Below, one piece after another: positions 3,790 to 18,514 of a DNA stretch of 36,235 nucleotides (position 1 is the stretch's first letter; every line of letters begins with the position of its first letter). The notes below the pieces were generated by a model. It did no database searches. It was not told where the DNA came from and worked only from the letters and a program-made list of their open reading frames with translations. Made by a program: the position numbers and the translations under genes. This stretch comes from Candidatus Azambacteria bacterium RIFCSPHIGHO2_02_FULL_52_12 (GTDB lineage: Bacteria; Patescibacteriota; Minisyncoccia; GWC2-36-17; WO2-46-25): the NCBI GenBank assembly GCA_001775835.1, contig MEYP01000006.1, positions 16,486-52,720 of the forward strand. The letters are read 5' to 3'.

Positions 3790-3810
3790 GTTAAAGTAGA
3801 GTTGGATTTT

Positions 3811-3845
3811 TTCTATTTTCTATTTTCTAAATTCTAGCTTCTATG
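3811..3845 (-). repeat. Heptad array (TAGAAnn) x5 in the sufB-sufD spacer
   Basis: The plus strand reads ttctatt ttctatt ttctaaa ttctagc ttctatg. On the mRNA strand this follows the sufB stop directly: TAG-CATAGAA GCTAGAA TTTAGAA AATAGAA AATAGAA. Confidence 0.9.
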
Positions 3846-9800: not shown

Positions 9801-10955
9801 ATGGAAGCGGCCGCAAAGAAAATTTTTGTAGCTATGTCGGGAGGCGTGGATAGCTCTGTTACTGCCGCTCTGCTTAAAGAGCAGGGGCGCGACGTAACAG
9901 GCATATTCATGAAGAACTGGTCTGACAGTGCGTTTTTGAAAGACACGACTATGTGCCCGTGGGTGGCGGACCAGGAAGATGCGCGCAAGGCGGCCGCGGT
10001 CATCGGCATTCCTTTGTATACGTTCGATTTTGAAAAAGAATATCGGGAAAAAGTCGTCGCGTATATGATAGCGGGATACAAGGCGGGGATTACGCCCAAC
10101 CCGGACGTGATGTGCAACAAGGAGATAAAGTTTGGACTGTTCTTACAAAAAGCGCTCGAGCTTGGCGCCGATTTTGTGGCGACCGGCCATTACGTCCGCC
10201 TTCGGCGGAATGACGAATTTCGAATTTCGAATTTCGAAATTGATTCAAAACTTAAAATTCAAAATTCAAAATTAGGTTGCCAGTTGTTACAAGCAAAAGA
10301 TCGAAATAAAGACCAATCTTATTTTTTGTGGACTCTTACGCAAGAACAGTTGAAATATTGCGTTTTTCCCATTGGAGAATATACCAAGCCGGAGGTGCGC
10401 GAGATGGCGCGGAAATACGGTTTGCATAACGCCCAGAAGAAAGACAGCCAGGGAGTGTGCTTCGTGGGCGACTTGGATGTGTTTGAATTTTTAAAGAGTC
10501 AAATCCCGACGCACAAGGGAAAGATCATGACCGCAAGCGGCAGGGAGGTCGGCGAGCACGAGGGTGTGGAATTTTACACTATCGGCCAGCGCCATGGCAT
10601 CGGTTCGCCTGGTGGCGGAACGGCGTATTATGTGGTTGGCAAGGATGCAAAGAAGAATATCTTGTATGTCGGCGAGGGCGCGGATGACAAAGAGCTCTAC
10701 GGCATGGCGCTTGAAGCCAGGGCAGCGCATTGGATTTCCGGCAACGAGCCAGAGTTGCCGTTACGCTGTGAAGCCAGAATACGGTATAGACAATCATTAC
10801 AGAAGTGTATTGTGAATTCTCTGTTTCATGTTTCACGTTTCATGTTTCACGTTGAGTTCGACGAGCCCCAGCGCGCTATCACGCCTGGCCAGTCTGTTGT
10901 TTTTTATGACGGGGATACGGTCCTTGGCGGTGCCGTAATCGTGCAAAAAGTTTGA
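9801..10955 (+). CDS. mnmA: tRNA 2-thiouridine(34) synthase MnmA
   Basis: The 384-aa ORF has the PP-loop (VAMSGGVDSSV), NPDVMCN, ATGHY, KDQSYFLW, DSQGVCF and the C-terminal AITPGQSVVFYDG. It contains two heptad-repeat tracts, listed separately. Confidence 0.93.
   Translation: MEAAAKKIFVAMSGGVDSSVTAALLKEQGRDVTGIFMKNWSDSAFLKDTTMCPWVADQEDARKAAAVIGIPLYTFDFEKEYREKVVAYMIAGYKAGITPNPDVMCNKEIKFGLFLQKALELGADFVATGHYVRLRRNDEFRISNFEIDSKLKIQNSKLGCQLLQAKDRNKDQSYFLWTLTQEQLKYCVFPIGEYTKPEVREMARKYGLHNAQKKDSQGVCFVGDLDVFEFLKSQIPTHKGKIMTASGREVGEHEGVEFYTIGQRHGIGSPGGGTAYYVVGKDAKKNILYVGEGADDKELYGMALEARAAHWISGNEPELPLRCEARIRYRQSLQKCIVNSLFHVSRFMFHVEFDEPQRAITPGQSVVFYDGDTVLGGAVIVQKV
10214..10276 (+). repeat. Nine 7-bp repeat units (63 bp, 21 codons) inside mnmA
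   Basis: The units read cgaattt x3, cgaaatt, gattcaa, aacttaa, aattcaa x2, aattagg. The tract is AT-rich compared with its flanks and encodes DEFRISNFEIDSKLKIQNSKL. Confidence 0.9.
10823..10853 (+). repeat. GTTTCAY heptad x4 inside mnmA
   Basis: The sequence gtttcat gtttcac gtttcat gtttcac gtt encodes FHVSRFMFHV. Confidence 0.9.
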
Positions 10956-11385: not shown

Positions 11386-11420
11386 AGCGCCATGACGAAA
11401 TCTGTCGTGGCGCTTTTTTT
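11386..11420 (+). terminator. Intrinsic terminator
   Basis: The 11-bp stem is agcgccatgac / gtcgtggcgct with loop gaaatct, followed by T7. Confidence 0.8.
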
Positions 11421-11421
11421 A

Positions 11422-11450
11422 TTGCAATCATGGGAAAAATTTACTATGAT
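11422..11450 (+). promoter_or_regulatory. alaS promoter (leaderless geometry)
   Basis: TTGCAA (11422-11427), a 17-bp spacer, then TATGAT (11445-11450). The ATG at 11458 is 7 nt after the -10 box. Confidence 0.6.
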
Positions 11451-11457
11451 GGACGCT

Positions 11458-13404
11458 ATGACGACTAATGAAGTACGGCAGAAATTCCTTGAATTCTTCC
11501 GAGAAAAAGGGCATGCCGTCATTCCCTCGGCTCCGCTCGTGCCCGACGACAAAACGGTGCTGTTCGTGACGGCCGGCATGCAACCGCTGGTGCCGTATTT
11601 GATGGGGGAGAGAAAGCACCCGCAGGGCGCGCGGCTTGCCAACTCGCAGAAATGCCTTCGCACGGATGATATTTTAGAAGTGGGGGACAATCGCCACCTC
11701 ACATTCTTTGAAATGCTCGGCAACTGGTCGCTGGGGGACCCGTCCGAACCGGACGCCAGCCCGACAGGGTCATCCGCCCGGCCAGGCCATTCGGACGGGT
11801 TCCGGCGGGGTATCGGCCGGGCGGGCTATTTCAAAAAAGAGTCCATTGCGTGGAGTTTTGAGCTTTTGACGTCAAAAAAATGGTTCGGCATCGATCCCGA
11901 AAAACTGTATGTCACCGTGTTTGAAGGAGATGCGACAATGGGTATCGCGCGCGACGACGAATCTATCGGTTACTGGAAAGAAGCATTCAAAACCGCGGGC
12001 ATAGATGCGAGTTTGGAAAACGGGCGCATTTCCGCCTATCCCAAAAAGAAAAATTGGTGGGAACTTGCCGGGTCGGGACCATGCGGGCCGGATACGGAGA
12101 TTTTCTACGATATGGGAAAAGAACATGACCCGGTATTTGGCGAACAATGCCATGCGAACTGCGACTGCGGGCGGTTTGTGGAAATCTGGAACAATGTGTT
12201 CATGGAATACGAAAAAAAGGCGGACGGTCCGCCGGTTGGCGGAGGTGGATATTCGTATGTACCGCTCGCGCAGAAAAACGTGGATACCGGCATGGGTCTT
12301 GAGCGCATCACGATGGTTTTACAAGGCGTTGAAACGGTATTTGAGATAGATGTTTTTAAAAAAATCATCGGGAGCATAGAGACAAAAAAAGTCCCCTACG
12401 AGAAAGAAGCGCGAAGATATCGCATCATTGCTGATCATCTGCGCGCGGCGGTGTTTCTGATCTCTGACGGCGTTGCACCTTCGAATGTGGAGCGAGGATA
12501 TATTCTGCGCAGTCTTTTGCGGCGTGCAATAGCGCAGGCGAGGATTTTGAATTTGCCGTTGCGTGATTTTCCAGTGAAACCGATTGAAAGAACACGCGAG
12601 TACTATAAAGAAAATTACCGACTTTCCGCGCTGCCGGCGATTATTGATATTGTAAAAAAAGAATTTGACGCGTTTCTGACGGCATTTGAGAAAGGGAGAA
12701 AAGAGGTTTTACGCATTGTCGGGAAAATACCCGAGGGCGGCGTGATACCCGCCAGAGACGCGTTCAATCTTCATCAGACATACGGTTTTCGGATTGAGTT
12801 GATGATTGATCTGGCAAAAGATTCCGGGCATACCGTGGATGAAAAAGGGTTCTGGGAAGAATACAAAAAGCACCAGGAGATTTCCCGCGCGGGATCAGAG
12901 AAAAAATTCGGCGGGCATGGTTTAATGCTGCAGACCGGTGAGCTGAAAGCGGCTGATGAAGAAGAGTTGAAAAAAGTGACGCGCCTGCACACGGCGACGC
13001 ATCTTTTGCAGGCGGCTTTGCGCAGGGTTTTGGGCGACCACGTGCACCAGATGGGTTCGGACATCACGGCAGAACGCCTGCGGTTCGACTTTTCGCACCC
13101 GCAAAAAATGACGGATGAGGAAAAAAAGAAGGTGGAAGAGGTGGTGAATAAGGAAATCCAAAAAGGACACGCGATGACCCATAAGGAAATGCCGATTGAC
13201 GAAGCGGAAAAAACCGGCGCATTGATGTTTCAAAAGGAAAAATACGGGAAAACGGTGAAAGTATATTCGGCCGGAGATTTCTCCAAAGAGCTCTGCGGAG
13301 GACCGCATGTGGCGAACACGAAAGAAGTGGGAACATTCAAAATCCTCAAAGAAGAGGCATCTTCCGCCGGCGTTCGTCGCATCCGCGCAACAGTTGTTGA
13401 TTGA
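11458..13404 (+). CDS. alaS: Alanine--tRNA ligase, short form lacking the C-terminal C-Ala/DHHA1 region
   Basis: The start is moved to MTTNEVRQKFLEFFREKGH because track start 11392 lies inside the terminator stem. The ORF has FEMLGNWSLGD...YFKKE, the editing-domain motifs HTATHLLQAAL and CGGPHV, and ends at ...RRIRATVVD. It is 648 aa. Confidence 0.9.
   Translation: MTTNEVRQKFLEFFREKGHAVIPSAPLVPDDKTVLFVTAGMQPLVPYLMGERKHPQGARLANSQKCLRTDDILEVGDNRHLTFFEMLGNWSLGDPSEPDASPTGSSARPGHSDGFRRGIGRAGYFKKESIAWSFELLTSKKWFGIDPEKLYVTVFEGDATMGIARDDESIGYWKEAFKTAGIDASLENGRISAYPKKKNWWELAGSGPCGPDTEIFYDMGKEHDPVFGEQCHANCDCGRFVEIWNNVFMEYEKKADGPPVGGGGYSYVPLAQKNVDTGMGLERITMVLQGVETVFEIDVFKKIIGSIETKKVPYEKEARRYRIIADHLRAAVFLISDGVAPSNVERGYILRSLLRRAIAQARILNLPLRDFPVKPIERTREYYKENYRLSALPAIIDIVKKEFDAFLTAFEKGRKEVLRIVGKIPEGGVIPARDAFNLHQTYGFRIELMIDLAKDSGHTVDEKGFWEEYKKHQEISRAGSEKKFGGHGLMLQTGELKAADEEELKKVTRLHTATHLLQAALRRVLGDHVHQMGSDITAERLRFDFSHPQKMTDEEKKKVEEVVNKEIQKGHAMTHKEMPIDEAEKTGALMFQKEKYGKTVKVYSAGDFSKELCGGPHVANTKEVGTFKILKEEASSAGVRRIRATVVD
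11740..11826 (+). repeat. 87-bp GC-rich palindromic element translated in-frame within alaS
   Basis: It encodes PSEPDASPTGSSARPGHSDGFRRGIGRAG between the GD and YFK residues. It has interleaved perfect 10-bp inverted repeats at 11739-48 / 11790-99 and 11774-83 / 11815-24. Its core resembles the reverse complement of the 61-bp element at 14011 and 14728. Confidence 0.85.
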
Positions 13405-13432: not shown

Positions 13433-13651
13433 ATGAAACAGGAATTTACAGCGGTCTATAAAAAGAGCGGAAAGTGGTACGTGGGGTGGGTGGAAGAGGT
13501 TTCCGGCGTGAATACGCAGGGGAAAACGCTCAAGGAAACAAAGGAAAATCTCCGCGAGGCGCTTTCTTTGGTGCTTGAGACGAACCGGATGTTGAGCAGA
13601 ATAGACGGGCGTCGGGCGATACGCGAACCGATCAGCGTTTTTGCGCGATGA
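13433..13651 (+). CDS. hicB: HicB-like antitoxin (72 aa)
   Basis: The start is the internal ATG of track ORF 13307..13651. MKQEFTAVYKKSGKWYVGWVEEVSGVNTQGKTLKETKENLREALSL fits the HicB/UPF0150 N-terminal fold pattern. An ATGA overlap couples it to hicA. Confidence 0.7.
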   Translation: MKQEFTAVYKKSGKWYVGWVEEVSGVNTQGKTLKETKENLREALSLVLETNRMLSRIDGRRAIREPISVFAR

Positions 13652-13842
13652 AGCGGGGAGATCTGATTTCGCATCTTGTACGCGAAGGATGCGTATTCAT
13701 CAGGGAGGGCGCTCGCCATAGCGTCTTTTTTAATCCGTTTACCAGGCGGACCTCCACGGTACCGCGGCATACGGAAGTAAATGACTTTCTTGCGCGGAAA
13801 ATTTGCCGCGATTTGGGCGTTGATAATGTGCGGAAAAAGTAG
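13648..13842 (+). CDS. hicA: HicA-family mRNA interferase toxin (64 aa)
   Basis: MKRGDLISHLVREGCVFIREGARHSVFFNP...TVPRHTEVNDFLARKICRDLGV matches the HicA pattern (G-x-H ... VP-x-H). Confidence 0.8.
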   Translation: MKRGDLISHLVREGCVFIREGARHSVFFNPFTRRTSTVPRHTEVNDFLARKICRDLGVDNVRKK

Positions 13843-13863: not shown

Positions 13864-15096
13864 ATGCCTTTCATTGAACGAAAAGAATTTCAAAAATATC
13901 AGGAAACGATCATGGTTGCCGTATACAGTGACAGGGTTTCCGCGTATGCGATAGGGAAAAATGCGGCCGGATACAACATTGTCGCCGGCGCGACCGAAGA
14001 ACAGGAAGAAGCCCGCCTGAACCCCGTCCGAACGGATGTTCATCCGGGCGGGGATCCAATGGTCGGGCAGGGAGAATTAAATACGGGAAAAATAAAACTT
14101 AACTGCCAGAAGGCGCTGCAGCGGCTCCCGCGCGAACACATGAAAAGCGGTATGCCCGTCGTCTTCGCGCTGGGGCCGGGCGCTTCGGAATGCGCTTTTG
14201 TATCGATCGATGCGCGGCGCGAACAGAAAGACGCGATCATTTCCGAAAGCGAAGTGAAGTCCATTATCGAGAGATCGTACGGCCTTAAGGCATCCGAAAG
14301 CGGCAAGGCATCCCTCAATGTTCCCGCGGGTTTTCTTGTGGACGGATTCTCGGTGCCTGACCCCGTCGGTTTGAACGGCCAGAATATCACCGTCAATCTG
14401 GTCAGCGTCAGCGCTTCCCGGGCGCTCGAAGAATCGTTTTCCGACATCGCGTCGTCGTACGGCTTGCGGTATGGCGGCATGGTCAATATATGCGGCATGC
14501 TTGCCGATGCCATGCCGTTATTCACGCAGGATGCCGATTGCGTGGCGATGCTCGTTTTCGAGCGGGAGATCATTCTGGCGCTCGTGCGCGGGAAAAAAAT
14601 ATCCGCCATTGGAAAAGCGGACGGCGGATATGGTATACTAGAACAAGAAGCGGCACGATCGTTTTCGGTAGGAATCGAGGAGGCGAAGAATATTTTGCGC
14701 GCGTTCGAGAAAAAACAGACGGATGCCGCCCGCCTGAACCCCGTCCGAACGGATGTTCATCCGGGCGGGGATCCAATGGTCGGGCAGGCCGTCGCGGAAA
14801 AGATAAACGAGCTGTCCGCGCGCGTCGTTTCCGACATCGCGCGGCGCATCGGATCGGCGCTTCCCAAGCTTGATTTTGAACATCTGATTCCCGCGACATT
14901 CCTGGTTGCGCAGTTCGGAAATCTTTCGCACCTGTCGCAGGCGTTGATCGACAACCCGACCTGGCTTGCCCAGGCGCCGGTCGCGAGAAACGCAGGGGTC
15001 GCGCGCATGAGCCCGCTCAAACAGAACATTCAGGACGACAAAAAAGTGCTCGCGGACGGCGATGCATACATACTAACCGCGCTTATGCGATCATGA
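13864..15096 (+). CDS. FtsA/PilM-like actin-fold protein (degenerate nucleotide-binding motifs)
   Basis: The 410-aa ORF has segments resembling FtsA (VNLVSVSASRALEESFSDIASSYGLRYGGMVNICGMLADA; GGYGILEQEAARSFSVGIEEAKNIL). The phosphate-binding DxGGG-type motifs are not evident. It contains two identical 61-bp inserts. Confidence 0.5.
   Translation: MPFIERKEFQKYQETIMVAVYSDRVSAYAIGKNAAGYNIVAGATEEQEEARLNPVRTDVHPGGDPMVGQGELNTGKIKLNCQKALQRLPREHMKSGMPVVFALGPGASECAFVSIDARREQKDAIISESEVKSIIERSYGLKASESGKASLNVPAGFLVDGFSVPDPVGLNGQNITVNLVSVSASRALEESFSDIASSYGLRYGGMVNICGMLADAMPLFTQDADCVAMLVFEREIILALVRGKKISAIGKADGGYGILEQEAARSFSVGIEEAKNILRAFEKKQTDAARLNPVRTDVHPGGDPMVGQAVAEKINELSARVVSDIARRIGSALPKLDFEHLIPATFLVAQFGNLSHLSQALIDNPTWLAQAPVARNAGVARMSPLKQNIQDDKKVLADGDAYILTALMRS
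14011..14071 (+). repeat. 61-bp GC-rich palindromic element, copy 1 (in-frame)
   Basis: The sequence is gcccgcctgaaccccgtccgaacggatgttcatccgggcggggatccaatggtcgggcagg. It encodes ARLNPVRTDVHPGGDPMVGQ and is identical to 14728-14788. Confidence 0.95.
14728..14788 (+). repeat. 61-bp GC-rich palindromic element, copy 2 (in-frame)
   Basis: It is a perfect copy of 14011-14071, lying 717 bp (239 codons) downstream in the same gene. The flanks are unrelated. Confidence 0.95.
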
Positions 15097-16814
15097 AAAA
15101 AATACTCTACGTACATCCCGACGAAACCATCGCCTATCTCATTGACCGGATGGAAAATACCGATTCGGATACGCTTTTTATCGTCGCGGACGCCAACGCC
15201 GCGCTCTTTATGGATTCGGTGAACCTGAAATTGCTCAAGCGCGAAGCGGACGGATTCCGCAAGCAATGCGTCATCGTTTCCCAAGCCCCGGCTGTTCTCG
15301 CCATGGCGCGCGAGGCCGGGTTTGACACATCGTCGGAAGATATCGCTCCTGAAGAGTCCGGGTACCCGCCCGTACCGAATGAGTACGTTCGGGCGGGCGG
15401 CGTGCAGCATGAAGTACCCAGTTCGACGGATTCGGCGGGCTCACTGCAGGCGGAATCGGAAGAAGAAGTGCCGGTGCATGTCCGGTCCAGCGCTCCCGAG
15501 AGCGGTCTTTCCATGGCTTCCGGGCGTTTTGTTTCGCATGACGCGCCACCCTCCGGCACAGAGGCCGATGAAGAGATGCATTATGAGAACAGCCCCGAAG
15601 AATCCGAAGAAGCGGGAGCGGGTGGTGCGCGCGACTATCGTGACGCCCGAAAAGGGGCGCCCGGCATGCCGCTCAACTGGAAATTCCTTGGCGCGACGCT
15701 CGCGGGGGTGCTTGTCGTCGCTGTCGCCGGTTTCTATCTTTTTTCCCCTAAGCTGTCCGTTTCCATCGTTCCCAAGAAAGAAACGCTGAATTTTGATTTT
15801 CAGGTGGTTGGCGACCTTGCGTTGTCGAGCGTTAATCTGACGAAAGCGCGCATCCCCGGGCAGGTCGTCACCATCGCGCAAGAGCAATCCGATTCGTTTC
15901 CCGCTACGGGAAAACAAGACAAAGAAACCAAGGCGGAAGGGGAGATCGTTATTTACAACGCGTTCGGCGCGGGCATCCAGACGCTGGTGAAAAATACCCG
16001 TTTCAAAGCGAAAGACGGCAAGTTGTTCCGCCTGGTGAGCGCGGTGACGGTTCCCGGCGCGAAGATGGAAGGAGGGAAAGTCGCCACGCCGGGCACGGTG
16101 AACGCGCGCGTTGTGGCAGACCAGCCGGGCGCGGCGTACAATATCGATCCGACTGATTTTTCAATACCCGGATTTCAGGATACTCCCAAGTTCCTCGGTT
16201 TTTACGGGAAATCAACCAAGCCCATGAGCGGAGGCGGTTCAAGCAACGCGCGGTTCGCCACTCGGGAAGATCTGGACAAAGCGAAGGCGGCGCTTTCCGA
16301 TGCTCTTGCCAAAAGCGCCCAAAGCCATGTCGCGTCGCAGATTCCCAAAGGGCTCAAGGCCGTTTCCGAGGCATTCGCACAGGAGGCGCCCCAGTTGACT
16401 CCCGGTTCGGTTGACGCGGACGGGATGTTCAAAGCGACGCTCAAAACGACCTATACCATTTTCGCTTTTTCCGAGAATGATATCATCGCGCTGATAGACC
16501 ATACGGTATCGGGAAGGATCTCGGAACGGCGCAAGGCCATCCCGGAGACGCGCGTTATTTCTTATGTCGATGAAGTCGTCAGTCAGGACAAAAAGTCGTT
16601 CTCGTTTACGGCAAAAATAAGCGAGCTGGTGCTTGGCATCATAGACCACAACGACATGCGGCTCCTGTTGGCGGGCAAAAACGAGTCGGAGATCAGGCAG
16701 ATACTGGGCGCCAATGAATCCATTGAGGGAGCGGAAATAACGTTTTGGCCGTTGTGGGCTTCGGCGGCTCCGGCAAACCCCGACATGATAAAGGTTTTTG
16801 TGGATGAGTCTTGA
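15093..16814 (+). CDS. Single-pass membrane protein with acidic linker and large extracytoplasmic domain, hypothetical
   Basis: The 573-aa ORF is coupled by an ATGA overlap to the FtsA-like gene. It has an N-terminal cytoplasmic domain, a low-complexity E/S/P-rich linker, one TM helix (LGATLAGVLVVAVAGFYLF) and about 350 aa outside. Confidence 0.75.
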   Translation: MKKILYVHPDETIAYLIDRMENTDSDTLFIVADANAALFMDSVNLKLLKREADGFRKQCVIVSQAPAVLAMAREAGFDTSSEDIAPEESGYPPVPNEYVRAGGVQHEVPSSTDSAGSLQAESEEEVPVHVRSSAPESGLSMASGRFVSHDAPPSGTEADEEMHYENSPEESEEAGAGGARDYRDARKGAPGMPLNWKFLGATLAGVLVVAVAGFYLFSPKLSVSIVPKKETLNFDFQVVGDLALSSVNLTKARIPGQVVTIAQEQSDSFPATGKQDKETKAEGEIVIYNAFGAGIQTLVKNTRFKAKDGKLFRLVSAVTVPGAKMEGGKVATPGTVNARVVADQPGAAYNIDPTDFSIPGFQDTPKFLGFYGKSTKPMSGGGSSNARFATREDLDKAKAALSDALAKSAQSHVASQIPKGLKAVSEAFAQEAPQLTPGSVDADGMFKATLKTTYTIFAFSENDIIALIDHTVSGRISERRKAIPETRVISYVDEVVSQDKKSFSFTAKISELVLGIIDHNDMRLLLAGKNESEIRQILGANESIEGAEITFWPLWASAAPANPDMIKVFVDES

Positions 16815-17279: not shown

Positions 17280-17393
17280 ATGAAAATCAGAGCATCCGTA
17301 AAAAAAATATGCGCGAAGTGCAAATCTGTGCGAAGGTTCGGAAGGATCTATGTGCTCTGCGCGAATCCAAAACATAAACAAAGACAGAAATAG
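17280..17393 (+). CDS. rpmJ: 50S ribosomal protein L36
   Basis: This ORF is too short for the ORF track. Hand translation gives [37 protein letters not shown] (37 aa). The stop TAG is the first unit of the heptad array. Confidence 0.9.
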
Positions 17394-17473
17394 AAACTAG
17401 AAATTAGAAAGTAGAATCTAGAACTAAGGAGTCCAAACTTCTATTTTCTAGATTCTAGCTTCTAGATTCCACA
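17391..17473 (+). repeat. Heptad palindrome: (TAGAAnn)x5, a spacer containing AAGGAG, then (TTCTAnn)x4-5
   Basis: The sequence is tagaaac tagaaat tagaaag tagaatc tagaact | aaggagtccaaac | ttctatt ttctaga ttctagc ttctaga ttccaca. For example, tagaatctagaa pairs perfectly with ttctagattcta. Confidence 0.9.
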
Positions 17474-18473: not shown

Positions 18474-18514
18474 CAGAAATAGAAACTAGAATTTAGAAAA
18501 TAGAAACTAGAATA
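18473..18514 (+). repeat. Heptad array (TAGAAnn)x5-6 filling the rpsK-rpsD spacer
   Basis: The sequence is acagaaa tagaaac tagaatt tagaaaa tagaaac tagaatATG. The last unit overlaps the rpsD start, and there is no SD. Confidence 0.9.

What the first reader, a model, noticed from the sequence alone, without database searches (positions are those of the whole stretch)
11740..11826. GC-rich palindromic element translated in-frame inside the conserved GD-YFK motif of AlaRS
The alaS product reads FFEMLGNWSLGD-[PSEPDASPTGSSARPGHSDGFRRGIGRAG]-YFKKESIAWSFELL. As I recall, in characterised AlaRS (E. coli ...FEMLGNFSFGDYFK...) the GD and YFK residues are contiguous. The 29 extra codons therefore look like an exact in-frame insertion into a catalytic-domain motif.

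The inserted DNA is much more GC-rich than its flanks. It carries two interleaved perfect 10-bp inverted repeats: CCCGTCCGAA (11739-48) with TTCGGACGGG (11790-99), and CCGCCCGGCC (11774-83) with GGCCGGGCGG (11815-24).

Its central ~60 nt aligns by eye with the reverse complement of the 61-bp element found twice in the FtsA-like gene. The shared blocks are CCnGCCCGAC, CCGCCCGG and TTCGGACGGG(G)TTCnGGCGGG. So one element family appears to sit in both orientations relative to host reading frames, and both orientations stay open.

This is the behaviour described for Rickettsia palindromic elements (RPEs). I am not aware of it being described for this kind of genome.
Basis: partly seen in the sequence, partly recalled or inferred. 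Interest (0 to 1): 0.82.

Follow-up and report, generated by a model that had tools for sequence, protein, structure and literature searches.

The report
Nested hairpin repeat translated inside AlaRS
An essential enzyme gene (alanyl-tRNA synthetase) of a groundwater Patescibacteria bacterium carries an 87-bp GC-rich nested-hairpin repeat inserted in frame; it belongs to an apparently undescribed family of small mobile hairpins that also sits inside many other housekeeping genes, the same behaviour known from Rickettsia palindromic elements.

Summary
Window 11740-11826 holds 87 extra bp (29 codons, 77% GC) exactly between GD and YFK of AlaRS. The 23 closest AlaRS relatives and solved AlaRS structures lack it. 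It is identical in six independent assemblies.

It is repeat DNA. Its inner 54 nt is homologous, in reverse orientation, to two 60-nt copies in the neighbouring FtsA-like gene. One of those copies is missing from a 97%-identical orthologue.

The shared core hairpin (CCCGTCCGAAYGG-loop-CCGGGCGG) occurs at 86 further unique sites in Patescibacteria, Bacteroidota and Planctomycetota contigs. About 23% of these lie in frame inside genes such as LigA, RNase J, MnmA, RsmH and Mur ligase. No transposase is nearby, there is no Rfam family, and I found no prior report for Patescibacteria.

- The alaS copy is nested: an inner element sits in the loop of an outer, inverted core-type hairpin.
- Open frames in both orientations are what GC-rich sequence gives by chance.
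- Short 10-11-aa loops resembling the outer arms occur at the same site in scattered AlaRS lineages. These may be older hairpin insertions.

Verdict: a real, RPE/REP-like selfish element translated as a disordered loop. It is a new member of a known kind.

The parts
11446..13404 (+). alaS (alanyl-tRNA synthetase), the host gene. The called product is P0001 (652 aa); the mechanical ORF starts at 11392.
   Evidence: Pfam tRNA-synt_2c E = 4.7e-117 plus tRNA_SAD. PDB AlaRS hits at 1e-74. P0001 is 100% identical and is seen on 12-15 contigs, including a 941-kb scaffold.
11740..11826 (+). The whole 87-nt (29-codon) insertion between GD and YFK. It is a composite nested-hairpin element, 77% GC.
   Evidence: The full length aligns to composite elements in unrelated contigs L022, L044, L055, L083 and L069. 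There is 1 nt of junction ambiguity (GGGGA|C...GGG|C).
11740..11757 (+). Outer hairpin, 5' arm (CCGTCCGAACCGGACGCC, encoding PSEPDA). With base 11739 it carries the core-family lower stem and bulge CCCGTCCGAAC.
   Evidence: It is 10/10 complementary to 11790-11799. It matches the family core consensus and the outer arms of L022 and L044.
11758..11811 (-). Inner 54-nt element (18 codons, SPTGSSARPGHSDGFRRG). It is the same type as the 60-nt FtsA-like copies but on the opposite strand. It contains the core GAACCCGTCCGAATGG-CCTGG-CCGGGCGG.
   Evidence: nhmmer hit 11817-11755 on the minus strand, E = 1.1e-12. Alignments A1 and A6. Boundaries are good to 1-3 nt.
11812..11826 (+). Outer hairpin, 3' arm (ATCGGCCGGGCGGGC, encoding IGRAG). 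It carries the core-family 3' stem CCGGGCGGG.
   Evidence: It is 10/10 complementary to 11774-11783. It matches the CCCGCCCGG outer arm of L022 and L044 on the reverse strand.
13864..15096 (+). FtsA-like gene (weak SHS2_FTSA hit; the called product P0126 starts at 13912). It hosts two element copies.
   Evidence: Pfam SHS2_FTSA E = 7e-4, below the curated cut-off. Orthologues P0127-P0130.
14011..14070 (+). 60-nt element copy 1 (20 codons, ARLNPVRTDVHPGGDPMVGQ).
   Evidence: It is absent from orthologues L109/P0128 (empty site GAA GAA|GGC GAG) and L007, P0129 and P0130. DNA hairpin z = -2.6.
14728..14787 (+). 60-nt element copy 2, identical over these 60 nt to copy 1 (the shared identical run is 61 nt, one base beyond the insert).
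   Evidence: It is absent from P0127, which is 97% identical and still has copy 1 (KKQTDA|VVAEKINE), and from P0128-P0130.

Best explanation
The 87 bp is a non-autonomous, GC-rich hairpin repeat of the REP/RPE kind that has landed in frame in alaS. It is carried as a translated, structurally disordered 29-residue loop at a permissive strand/helix junction just after class-II motif 2.

Architecture. The element is nested. A 54-nt inner element has the form CCCCGCC-[core hairpin CCCGTCCGAAYGG-loop-CCGGGCGG]-ATGAC..GTCGGGCTGG. It lies in the loop of an outer, oppositely oriented core-type hairpin of 33 nt (11 codons).

Other copies. Two 60-nt relatives sit in the FtsA-like gene 2-3 kb away.

How it works (inferred). 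The family spreads without a target-site duplication and without a linked transposase. It is presumably mobilised in trans as a single-stranded DNA hairpin, as REP/REPIN and IS200/IS605-type elements are. It tends to land in loops of related hairpins. In essential genes only insertions survive that are a multiple of 3 nt long, free of stop codons, and in surface-tolerant positions.

Shown versus inferred. Shown: insertion status, family membership, presence/absence polymorphism, in-frame occupancy of many genes, hairpin covariation. Inferred: translation, neutrality, the transposition mechanism, and whether the outer and inner parts arrived in one step or two.
For: 1. Exact insertion. The closest 23 AlaRS (64-80% identity) and PDB AlaRS chains have GD-YFK contiguous.

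2. Repeat family within the window. Three copies, with nhmmer E = 1e-12 to 1e-21.

3. Mobility. Copy 2 in the FtsA-like gene is missing from the 97%-identical P0127. Both copies are missing from P0128 (66% identity in the alignment), with clean 60-nt empty sites and no TSD.

4. Family outside the window. The core pattern has 23 hits in GTDB genomes and 74 in JGI metagenome loci, giving 89 unique sites including the window's three. My own arithmetic expects about 0.1-2 by chance. Flanks that the pattern did not force are conserved within subfamilies.

5. In-frame occupancy. 20 of 86 outside sites lie well inside ORFs. Pfam-confirmed hosts are RsmH, Mur ligase, MnmA, LigA, a pseudouridine synthase, pol III delta', RNase J, an HI0933-like flavoprotein, a TPR/histidine kinase, a PMT_2 glycosyltransferase, a DUF772 transposase, a transglutaminase-like N-terminal domain protein, and an N-terminal extension of S10. 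Both orientations and all three codon phases are used.

6. The hairpin is maintained. The unconstrained upper stem pairs in 25 of 28 distinct variants, with A-T to C-G swaps. Only 11 of 5000 shuffles reach this.

7. No recurrent transposase among 103 neighbouring ORFs.

8. Not an artefact. The element is identical in six assemblies.

9. Structure. In the AlphaFold2 model the insert residues 102-124 have pLDDT below 50 and are coil. They lie between a strand (87-95) and a helix (130-142), both mostly above 90.

10. Permissive site. An unrelated insert of about 41 aa occupies the same junction in P0195.
Against: - No direct evidence of translation or of AlaRS activity with the insert.
- No mobilising enzyme was identified.
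- A genome-wide census of the 941-kb source genome was not possible. There are only 3 copies in about 45 kb, all within 3 kb. In other loci extra copies are rare, about 7 in 690 kb. This is a low-copy family, unlike classic REPs and RPEs.
- No clean empty-site allele of alaS was found within the species. All cluster members that cover the site cleanly (P0121, P0123, P0125) keep the insert. The one apparent short-loop allele, P0122/L111, is a chimeric scaffold.
- The ends of the insert resemble a 10-11-aa peptide loop found in scattered AlaRS lineages. Part of the 29 codons might therefore predate the inner element.
- The cross-phylum assignments rest mostly on MAG binning. Only Niabella defluvii (L026) is a complete genome, and it shares just the core hairpin.
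Confidence: 0.8

Rival explanations
1. Two-step history with a pre-existing protein loop. The lineage already had an 11-aa AlaRS loop (PxxPDx[IL]GxxG), a genuine selected protein feature found in other AlaRS. Only the inner 54 nt is a recent mobile insertion. The complementarity between loop and inner arms is what attracted the element, or is coincidental.
For: - Loops PSAPDGIGAG, PDAPDRVGAG, PNSPDKIGAG, PSAPDKIGAG, PDAPDGVGAG, PASPGGIGPDG, PQSPDGIGALG and PASPDGLGEAG occur at the same site.
- Their DNA differs at synonymous sites while the peptide is kept.
- The window's outer part is also 11 aa and fits the pattern.
- Composites elsewhere have different outer arms and spacers, which suggests repeated nesting.
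Against: - The 23 closest relatives have no loop at all, and loop-bearers are scattered in the tree.
- The window's outer arms are canonical family DNA: CCCGTCCGAAC and CCGGGCGGG, shared with the L022 and L044 composites.
- The two departures from the 10-aa loop consensus (GAA for Glu, and the extra CGG) are exactly what make the arms canonical.
- The loops may themselves be fossil hairpins. L008 has z = -3.9 and L111 z = -2.2.
Confidence: 0.45
2. The hairpin is a functional cis element selected for its own sake, acting on mRNA or DNA. Possible roles are translational pausing, transcript stability, or a recombination or replication signal. On this reading it is not selfish DNA.
For: - The core sequence is nearly invariant across phyla while the upper stem covaries.
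- Many copies lie at gene boundaries, as REPs do.
- The better-pairing strand is the mRNA strand in alaS.
Against: - There is no Rfam family.
- Copies occur in both orientations and all codon phases in unrelated genes.
- Presence/absence varies between near-identical orthologues.
- The closest AlaRS relatives function without it.
- Folding z-scores of the full elements are modest.
- The invariance of the core was partly imposed by the search pattern.
Confidence: 0.12
3. The segment is not translated. It is removed from the mRNA or bypassed by the ribosome, like an intron or the mitochondrial 'byp' elements, or spliced out of the protein like an intein.
For: It is a GC-rich hairpin insert in an essential, highly conserved motif. 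Translational bypass of GC-rich palindromic inserts is known in yeast mitochondria (from my own knowledge).
Against: - All three window copies are multiples of 3 nt (87 = 33 + 54; 60; 60) and free of stops in the host frame.
- At 29 aa it is far too short for an intein, and it begins with Pro rather than Cys, Ser or Thr.
- No intron or ribozyme family matches.
- Every intragenic copy I counted preserves the host frame. This is partly by construction, because sites were scored as intragenic only where an ORF spans them, so frame-breaking insertions would have been counted as intergenic.
Confidence: 0.03
4. Assembly or scaffolding artefact.
For: One scaffold (L111) has an N-gap exactly inside the element and a chimeric join there.
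Against: The sequence is identical across the element in six independent contigs from different samples and assemblers. The same insert is present in the NCBI proteins OGD32239.1, OGD34208.1 and OGD37160.1.
Confidence: 0.01

Closest known systems
Rickettsia palindromic elements (RPE; Ogata et al. 2000, as summarised in PMC10969869)
   Same: Small palindromic repeats inserted in frame in unrelated housekeeping genes. They are translated as extra peptide segments that are compatible with the fold, are non-autonomous, and form several subfamilies.
   Different: - There is no sequence relation to RPEs.
- These elements are shorter (30, 54-60 and 87 nt, against about 100-150 nt for RPE-1).
- The hosts are free-living or episymbiotic Patescibacteria and other phyla, not Rickettsiales.
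- Copy density appears low.
- The architecture is nested (hairpin within hairpin loop).
- The conserved-peptide property of RPEs was not tested.
GTAG/CGTC-tagged REPs, including intragenic REP dimers (Di Nocera et al. 2013, PMC3733652)
   Same: - GC-rich stem-loops of 20-40 nt, often in inverted pairs that can form one larger hairpin.
- Some lie inside genes and encode 20-30 aa.
- CGTC REPs lack a dedicated transposase and occur in several phyla, including Bacteroidetes.
- About 20 of my loci show this core hairpin inserted into a TGTC-AT...TCCCGCGGAGGCGGGAAT-CC REP of that kind.
   Different: The core here has its CGTC inside the stem, not as an unpaired head. The stem does not start with AT, the loop is not 4-5 nt, and there is no CCA tail (definition). 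Patescibacteria are not among the phyla reported there.
REPIN/RAYT and IS200/IS605-derived hairpin elements
   Same: Hairpin-defined ends, insertion without target-site duplication, and inverted doublets.
   Different: No RAYT or Y1 transposase was found next to any of about 86 sites. There is no GTAG head. Mobilisation by an HUH enzyme is only inferred.
Mitochondrial GC clusters and double-hairpin elements of fungi, and 'byp' elements (from my own knowledge, not checked here)
   Same: GC-rich mobile hairpins in AT-richer genomes that insert into coding regions and into each other.
   Different: Those are organellar. Byp elements are bypassed, not translated. No homology was tested.

Membership tests
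Rickettsia palindromic elements (RPE) | Palindromic repeat present in many copies in one genome | tested here: inconclusive
   There are three copies in about 45 kb of the source genome. The rest of the 941-kb scaffold could not be read.
Rickettsia palindromic elements (RPE) | In-frame insertion into unrelated protein-coding genes, absent from orthologues | tested here: met
   AlaRS, the FtsA-like gene twice, and 13 Pfam-identified hosts elsewhere.
Rickettsia palindromic elements (RPE) | Sequence homology to RPE-1 to RPE-10, and Rickettsiales hosts | tested here: not met
   The hosts are Patescibacteria, Bacteroidota and Planctomycetota. The core does not fit the CGTC-1/-4 definition to which RPE-6 and RPE-4 belong. 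No direct alignment to RPE sequences was possible.
CGTC-tagged REP superfamily | Unpaired CGTC (or TGTC/CCTC) head, 8-9 bp stem starting with AT, 4-5 nt loop, CCA-like tail | tested here: not met
   The core here is CC-CGTC-CGAAYGG...CCGGGCGG, with CGTC paired inside the lower stem, a GAA bulge and a variable upper stem.
REPIN / REPtron (RAYT-mobilised) | GTAG-headed REPs in inverted doublets, with a flanked RAYT gene somewhere in the genome | tested here: inconclusive
   There is no GTAG head. No Y1/RAYT family recurs among 103 neighbouring ORFs. Whole genomes were not searched.
Classical MITE | Terminal inverted repeats plus a target-site duplication, derived from an IS | tested here: not met
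   Empty-site comparison shows clean 60-nt inserts with at most 1 nt of junction ambiguity and no TSD. No parent IS was seen.
Described structured RNA (Rfam 15) | Match to a curated covariance model at gathering score | tested here: not met
   The window plus 10 loci gave only a tRNA. A permissive scan of the element gave only sub-threshold chance hits.
Intein / mini-intein | At least about 130 aa with Cys/Ser/Thr at position 1 and a C-terminal His-Asn followed by Cys/Ser/Thr | tested here: not met
   The segment is 29 aa, starts with Pro, ends with Gly and is followed by Tyr.

The most novel reading that the evidence does not exclude
A single superfamily of about 30-nt core hairpins (CCCGTCCGAAYGG-loop-CCGGGCGG) and their 54-60-nt derivatives moves between bacterial phyla (Patescibacteria, Bacteroidota, Planctomycetota). 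It preferentially nests in the loops of its own relatives and repeatedly seeds new peptide loops in essential enzymes. On this reading the conserved 10-11-aa PxxPDG[IV]GAG loop seen in scattered AlaRS lineages is a domesticated fossil of such an insertion, and the window's alaS shows the process caught in the act.
Probability: 0.3. Interest if true: 0.75.

Novelty: new member of a known kind. Interest (0 to 1): 0.58.

Why it matters
In-frame colonisation of essential genes by selfish palindromes has been treated as a curiosity of Rickettsia and a few REP-rich genomes. Finding it in ultra-small Patescibacteria has several consequences:

- It occurs here in alaS, ligA, RNase J, mnmA and others, so small streamlined genomes are not protected from such elements.
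- It offers a natural map of insertion-tolerant sites in core enzymes.
- It warns annotators that lineage-specific loops in CPR proteins can be repeat DNA.
- It is a practical cause of assembly breaks (see L111).

If the short AlaRS loops are fossil hairpins, this is also a concrete route by which selfish DNA creates lasting protein sequence.

Tried and rejected
- Peptide census. A concatenation of all open-frame translations of both element types was searched against 5.8 billion proteins. It returned one weak hit and not even the window's own proteins.
- Source-genome census. Neither public collection held the source scaffold, so no genome-wide count was possible. Extending the window gave only 9 kb upstream, with no copy. 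The downstream look-up failed.
- DNA for P0127, the allele lacking copy 2, is not on record.
- Vectors. Searches of phages, plasmids and IMG/VR were all negative.
- Rfam gave nothing.
- P0122 first looked like a same-species allele with only the outer loop. The DNA showed a scaffold gap and a chimeric join, so I rejected it as a clean empty site.
- Rejected on evidence: intein, intron or bypass, and assembly artefact.
- The idea that the element is designed to stay open in both orientations was rejected.
- The syntenic 299-aa ORF of L009 was too diverged to serve as an FtsA-like orthologue.
Full report
**1. The observation**

The window's ORF 11392-13404 (called gene from 11446; P0001, 652 aa) is an alanyl-tRNA synthetase. 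Pfam gives tRNA-synt_2c at E = 4.7e-117 plus tRNA_SAD.

Positions 11740-11826 are 87 nt (29 codons, PSEPDASPTGSSARPGHSDGFRRGIGRAG) lying exactly between ...FFEMLGNWSLGD and YFKKESIAWSFELL. The segment is 77% GC in a 51% GC gene and forms one of the strongest fine-scale GC spikes in the window.

Against solved AlaRS structures the alignment breaks at query residues 116 and 145, which map to adjacent residues of the chains. GD and YFK are therefore contiguous in characterised enzymes.

The organism is a Patescibacteria bacterium. The identical protein is OGD32239.1 of Candidatus Azambacteria bacterium RIFCSPLOWO2_01_FULL_46_25, and the longest contig is a 941-kb Rifle-aquifer scaffold.

**2. It is an insertion and not an artefact**

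Among the other 59 closest AlaRS in a 5.8-billion-protein collection, 55 have GD-YFK contiguous. These include all 23 closest relatives at 64-80% identity.

The 87 nt and its flanks are identical in six independent contigs from different samples and assemblers. The three cluster members that cover the site cleanly (P0121, P0123, P0125) keep the 29 residues.

**3. It is repeat DNA**

The reverse complement aligns to two copies in the neighbouring FtsA-like ORF (13864-15096) that are 96% identical to each other. A profile built from the three finds only these three places in the window, with E = 1.5e-21, 2.5e-21 and 1.1e-12.

Orthologues of the FtsA-like protein settle the status of these copies:
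- P0128 (66% identity in the alignment), P0129 and P0130 lack both.
- P0127 (97% identical) has copy 1 but lacks copy 2 precisely (KKQTDA|VVAEKINE).

DNA of the empty sites (L109, L007) shows that each insert is exactly 60 nt: 14011-14070 and 14728-14787, GCCCGCC...GGGCAG. Junction ambiguity is at most 1 nt and there is no target-site duplication. Presence/absence between 97%-identical proteins is the clearest sign of recent gain or loss.

**4. The family outside the window**

I scanned public collections with a pattern of the blocks common to all three copies: GAACCC(N0-1)GTCCGAAYGG(N3-10)CCGGGCGG. My own arithmetic expects about 0.1-2 chance matches in 596 Gb.

The scan gave 23 loci in GTDB species genomes and 74 in JGI metagenomes. 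That makes 89 unique sites including the window's three. By record title, the GTDB carriers are:

| Group | Loci |
|---|---|
| Patescibacteria (Nomura-, Taylor-, Sacchari-, Parcubacteria, Minisyncoccia) | 9 |
| Unclassified | 3 |
| Bacteroidota (including the complete Niabella defluvii genome) | 8 |
| Planctomycetota | 2 |
| Pseudomonadota | 1 |

Sequence that the pattern did not force is conserved within subfamilies.
- *60-nt type.* (G/A)CCCGCC(T/C/A)-core-...(G/A)TCGGGCAGG recurs in L018, L101, L078, L052, L108 and L065.
- *Composite alaS type.* It recurs along its whole length in L022 (a 33% GC Taylorbacteria contig), L044, L055, L083 and L069.
- *Other contexts*. The bare core is embedded in a TGTC-AT...TCCCGCGGAGGCGGGAAT-CC REP (about 20 loci). 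It sits between short AT-rich repeats in Bacteroidota. It occurs as tandem cores near tRNA-Ile in Saccharibacteria.

The upper stem, which the pattern left free, covaries (GGAT/ATCC, GGCC/GGCC, GGAC/GTCC). The first pair forms in 25 of 28 distinct variants, and only 11 of 5000 shuffles reach that. No Rfam family matches.

**5. Architecture of the alaS copy**

Read on the minus strand, the 87 nt is [GCCCGCCCGG-CCGATA]-[CCCCGCCG-GAACCCGTCCGAATGG-CCTGG-CCGGGCGG-ATGACCCTGTCGGGCTGG]-[CGTCCGG-TTCGGACGG].

The middle part is an inner element of the 60-nt type. The two flanks are the reverse complements of the core's own arms. In other words, they form a second core-type hairpin (plus strand: CCCGTCCGAAC-CGG...CCGG-GCGGG) whose loop holds the inner element.

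In other genomes the outer arms come in at least two kinds (CCGCCCGG.../...TTCGGACGGG and CCCGCCCGAACGTAC.../...GTACGGGCGGG) with different spacers. That pattern suggests repeated nesting into hairpin loops rather than one fixed composite. The order of events in alaS is not resolved.

**6. In-frame occupancy of genes**

Of 86 sites outside the window, 20 lie at least 20 codons inside ORFs of 90 aa or more. Pfam identifies the following hosts:
- RsmH/MraW
- a Mur ligase
- MnmA
- NAD-dependent DNA ligase
- a pseudouridine synthase
- DNA polymerase III delta'
- RNase J
- an HI0933-like flavoprotein (L018), which reads PNPVRTDVHPGG, the same peptide as the FtsA-like copies
- a TPR/histidine kinase
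- a PMT_2 glycosyltransferase
- a DUF772 transposase
- a transglutaminase-like protein
- an N-terminal extension of ribosomal protein S10

Both orientations and all three codon phases are used, which gives a few recurrent peptide classes.

Only about 23% of sites are intragenic. From my own knowledge, Patescibacteria genomes are roughly 90% coding, so this fraction fits selection against most genic insertions.

The number of open frames (4 of 6 for the 60-nt type, 5 of 6 for the 87-nt type) equals that of composition-matched shuffles. Staying open in both orientations is therefore a by-product of GC-richness.

**7. Mobilisation**

No family recurs among 103 flanking ORFs. They are ordinary housekeeping genes. 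No copies occur in phage, plasmid or IMG/VR collections.

Four features fit the REP/RPE class, which is thought to move as single-stranded hairpins through trans-acting HUH enzymes: hairpin-defined ends, no TSD, inverted nesting and no linked transposase. This step is inference. Di Nocera et al. note that CGTC-type REPs, which include RPE-4 and RPE-6, also lack a dedicated transposase and occur inside genes as dimers encoding 20-30 aa (PMC3733652). The core here does not meet their structural definition of a CGTC REP.

**8. Effect on the protein**

An AlphaFold2 model of P0001, built on a 65-sequence alignment, has mean pLDDT 84.8. It gives a strand at 87-95 and a helix at 130-142 with high confidence. 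Residues 102-124 of the insert have pLDDT below 50 and no secondary structure.

The junction follows the second strand of class-II motif 2. From my own knowledge of AlaRS structures, it lies away from the catalytic pocket. P0195 carries an unrelated insert of about 41 aa at the same junction, so the site is permissive. Translation and activity are inferred, not shown.

**9. The short loops at the same site (unresolved)**

Ten- or eleven-residue loops occur exactly at GD|YFK in AlaRS from at least three separate places in the tree: PSAPDGIGAG, PDAPDRVGAG, PNSPDKIGAG, PSAPDKIGAG, PDAPDGVGAG, PASPGGIGPDG, PQSPDGIGALG and PASPDGLGEAG. They resemble the two ends of the window's insert (PSEPDA...IGRAG, also 11 aa).

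Their DNA differs at synonymous sites, so the peptide is under selection. The motif S-A-P...G-A-G is what a DNA palindrome encodes. Two of the four loop DNAs examined are still significant hairpins (L008 z = -3.9; L111 z = -2.2), and two are not.

The window's outer arms are canonical family DNA, also seen in L022 and L044. Its two departures from the 10-aa consensus (GAA, and the extra CGG) are what make them canonical. I therefore lean towards the short loops being older hairpin insertions at one permissive site that were later kept as peptide. The alternative, a pre-existing protein loop later hit by the 54-nt inner element, is not excluded.

The apparent intermediate P0122 is a chimeric scaffold with an N-gap inside the element and cannot decide the matter.

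**10. Comparison and verdict**

The behaviour is that of Rickettsia palindromic elements and intragenic REPs. By sequence, structure and host, the element is not a member of any described family I could test.

I found no report of such elements in Patescibacteria in the searchable literature. That is absence of evidence in one library only.

It is a new member of a known kind. Three aspects are unusual:
- nesting;
- a core shared across phyla, although most non-CPR assignments rest on MAG binning;
- a possible link to conserved AlaRS loops.

Limits of this analysis:
- The source genome could not be censused beyond about 45 kb.
- Extra copies in other loci are rare, so this is a low-copy family.
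- The mobilising enzyme is unknown.

Noticed in passing
window 3809-3844, 17386-17469, 18477-18512; also 10214-10273 and 10822-10853: Arrays of 7-nt tandem repeats (TTTTCTA / AGAAACT / TTCTAGA / AAATAGA; CGAATTT / ATTCAAA; TGTTTCA). The first three sites are related to each other in direct and inverted orientation. By the ORF and gene coordinates they fall mainly in spacers, for example around rpsM/rpsK and after sufB, but this was not checked site by site. Similar short AT-rich repeats flank the hairpin in Bacteroidota and some CPR loci.
   Followed up: partly
window 30154-30198 and 30793-30837: Two 45-nt direct repeats, 96% identical, each containing its own inverted repeat (AATCGTACACAA...TTGTGTACGATT). 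They bracket ORF 30219-30776, which has a PaaX_M (PaaX-like regulator) domain. They are probably operator sites before this gene and the next.
   Followed up: partly
L111 about 1195-1205 (corresponds to window about 11780): A public scaffold has a 10-N gap exactly inside the element and joins two different alaS populations there. The element evidently breaks or mis-joins metagenome assemblies, and the resulting 'protein' P0122 is chimeric.
   Followed up: yes
L012, L013, L028, L031, L036, L039, L043, L047, L053, L070, L074, L075, L093, L099, L103, L105 (core positions as): In about 20 loci the 30-nt core hairpin sits inside a TGTC-AT...TCCCGC(N4)GCGGGAAT-CC stem-loop. This is the published CGTC-type REP shape, often followed by a conserved ...AGAAAAGTNCGAAATGCGTAAGTCC tail. 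This is a hairpin inserted into another repeat family.
   Followed up: partly
L023, L034, L068, L071, L088: In Saccharibacteria-like contigs the core occurs as two to four tandem copies close to a tRNA-Ile(GAT) gene, in very AT-rich surroundings.
   Followed up: partly
protein P0195 (AlaRS representative), residues about 95-140: An unrelated insert of about 41 aa (YNADGDCHPESASQRDEGSGRLDSSSPTQNDKNVCNDENNA) sits at the same G|YFK junction of AlaRS. Its origin was not examined.
   Followed up: no
window 13433-13842: A HicB-like (UPF0150) / HicA toxin-antitoxin pair lies between alaS and the FtsA-like gene. In one strain contig (L002) only the HicB-like gene was called.
   Followed up: no
window 13864-16814 and loci L007, L009, L109: The FtsA-like gene and a following gene of about 560-580 aa with no Pfam domain form a conserved pair. 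The pair sits upstream of infA-rpsM-rpsK-rpsD-rpoA in several Azambacteria-like contigs, usually just after alaS. All three element copies in the window fall within this 3-kb neighbourhood.
   Followed up: no
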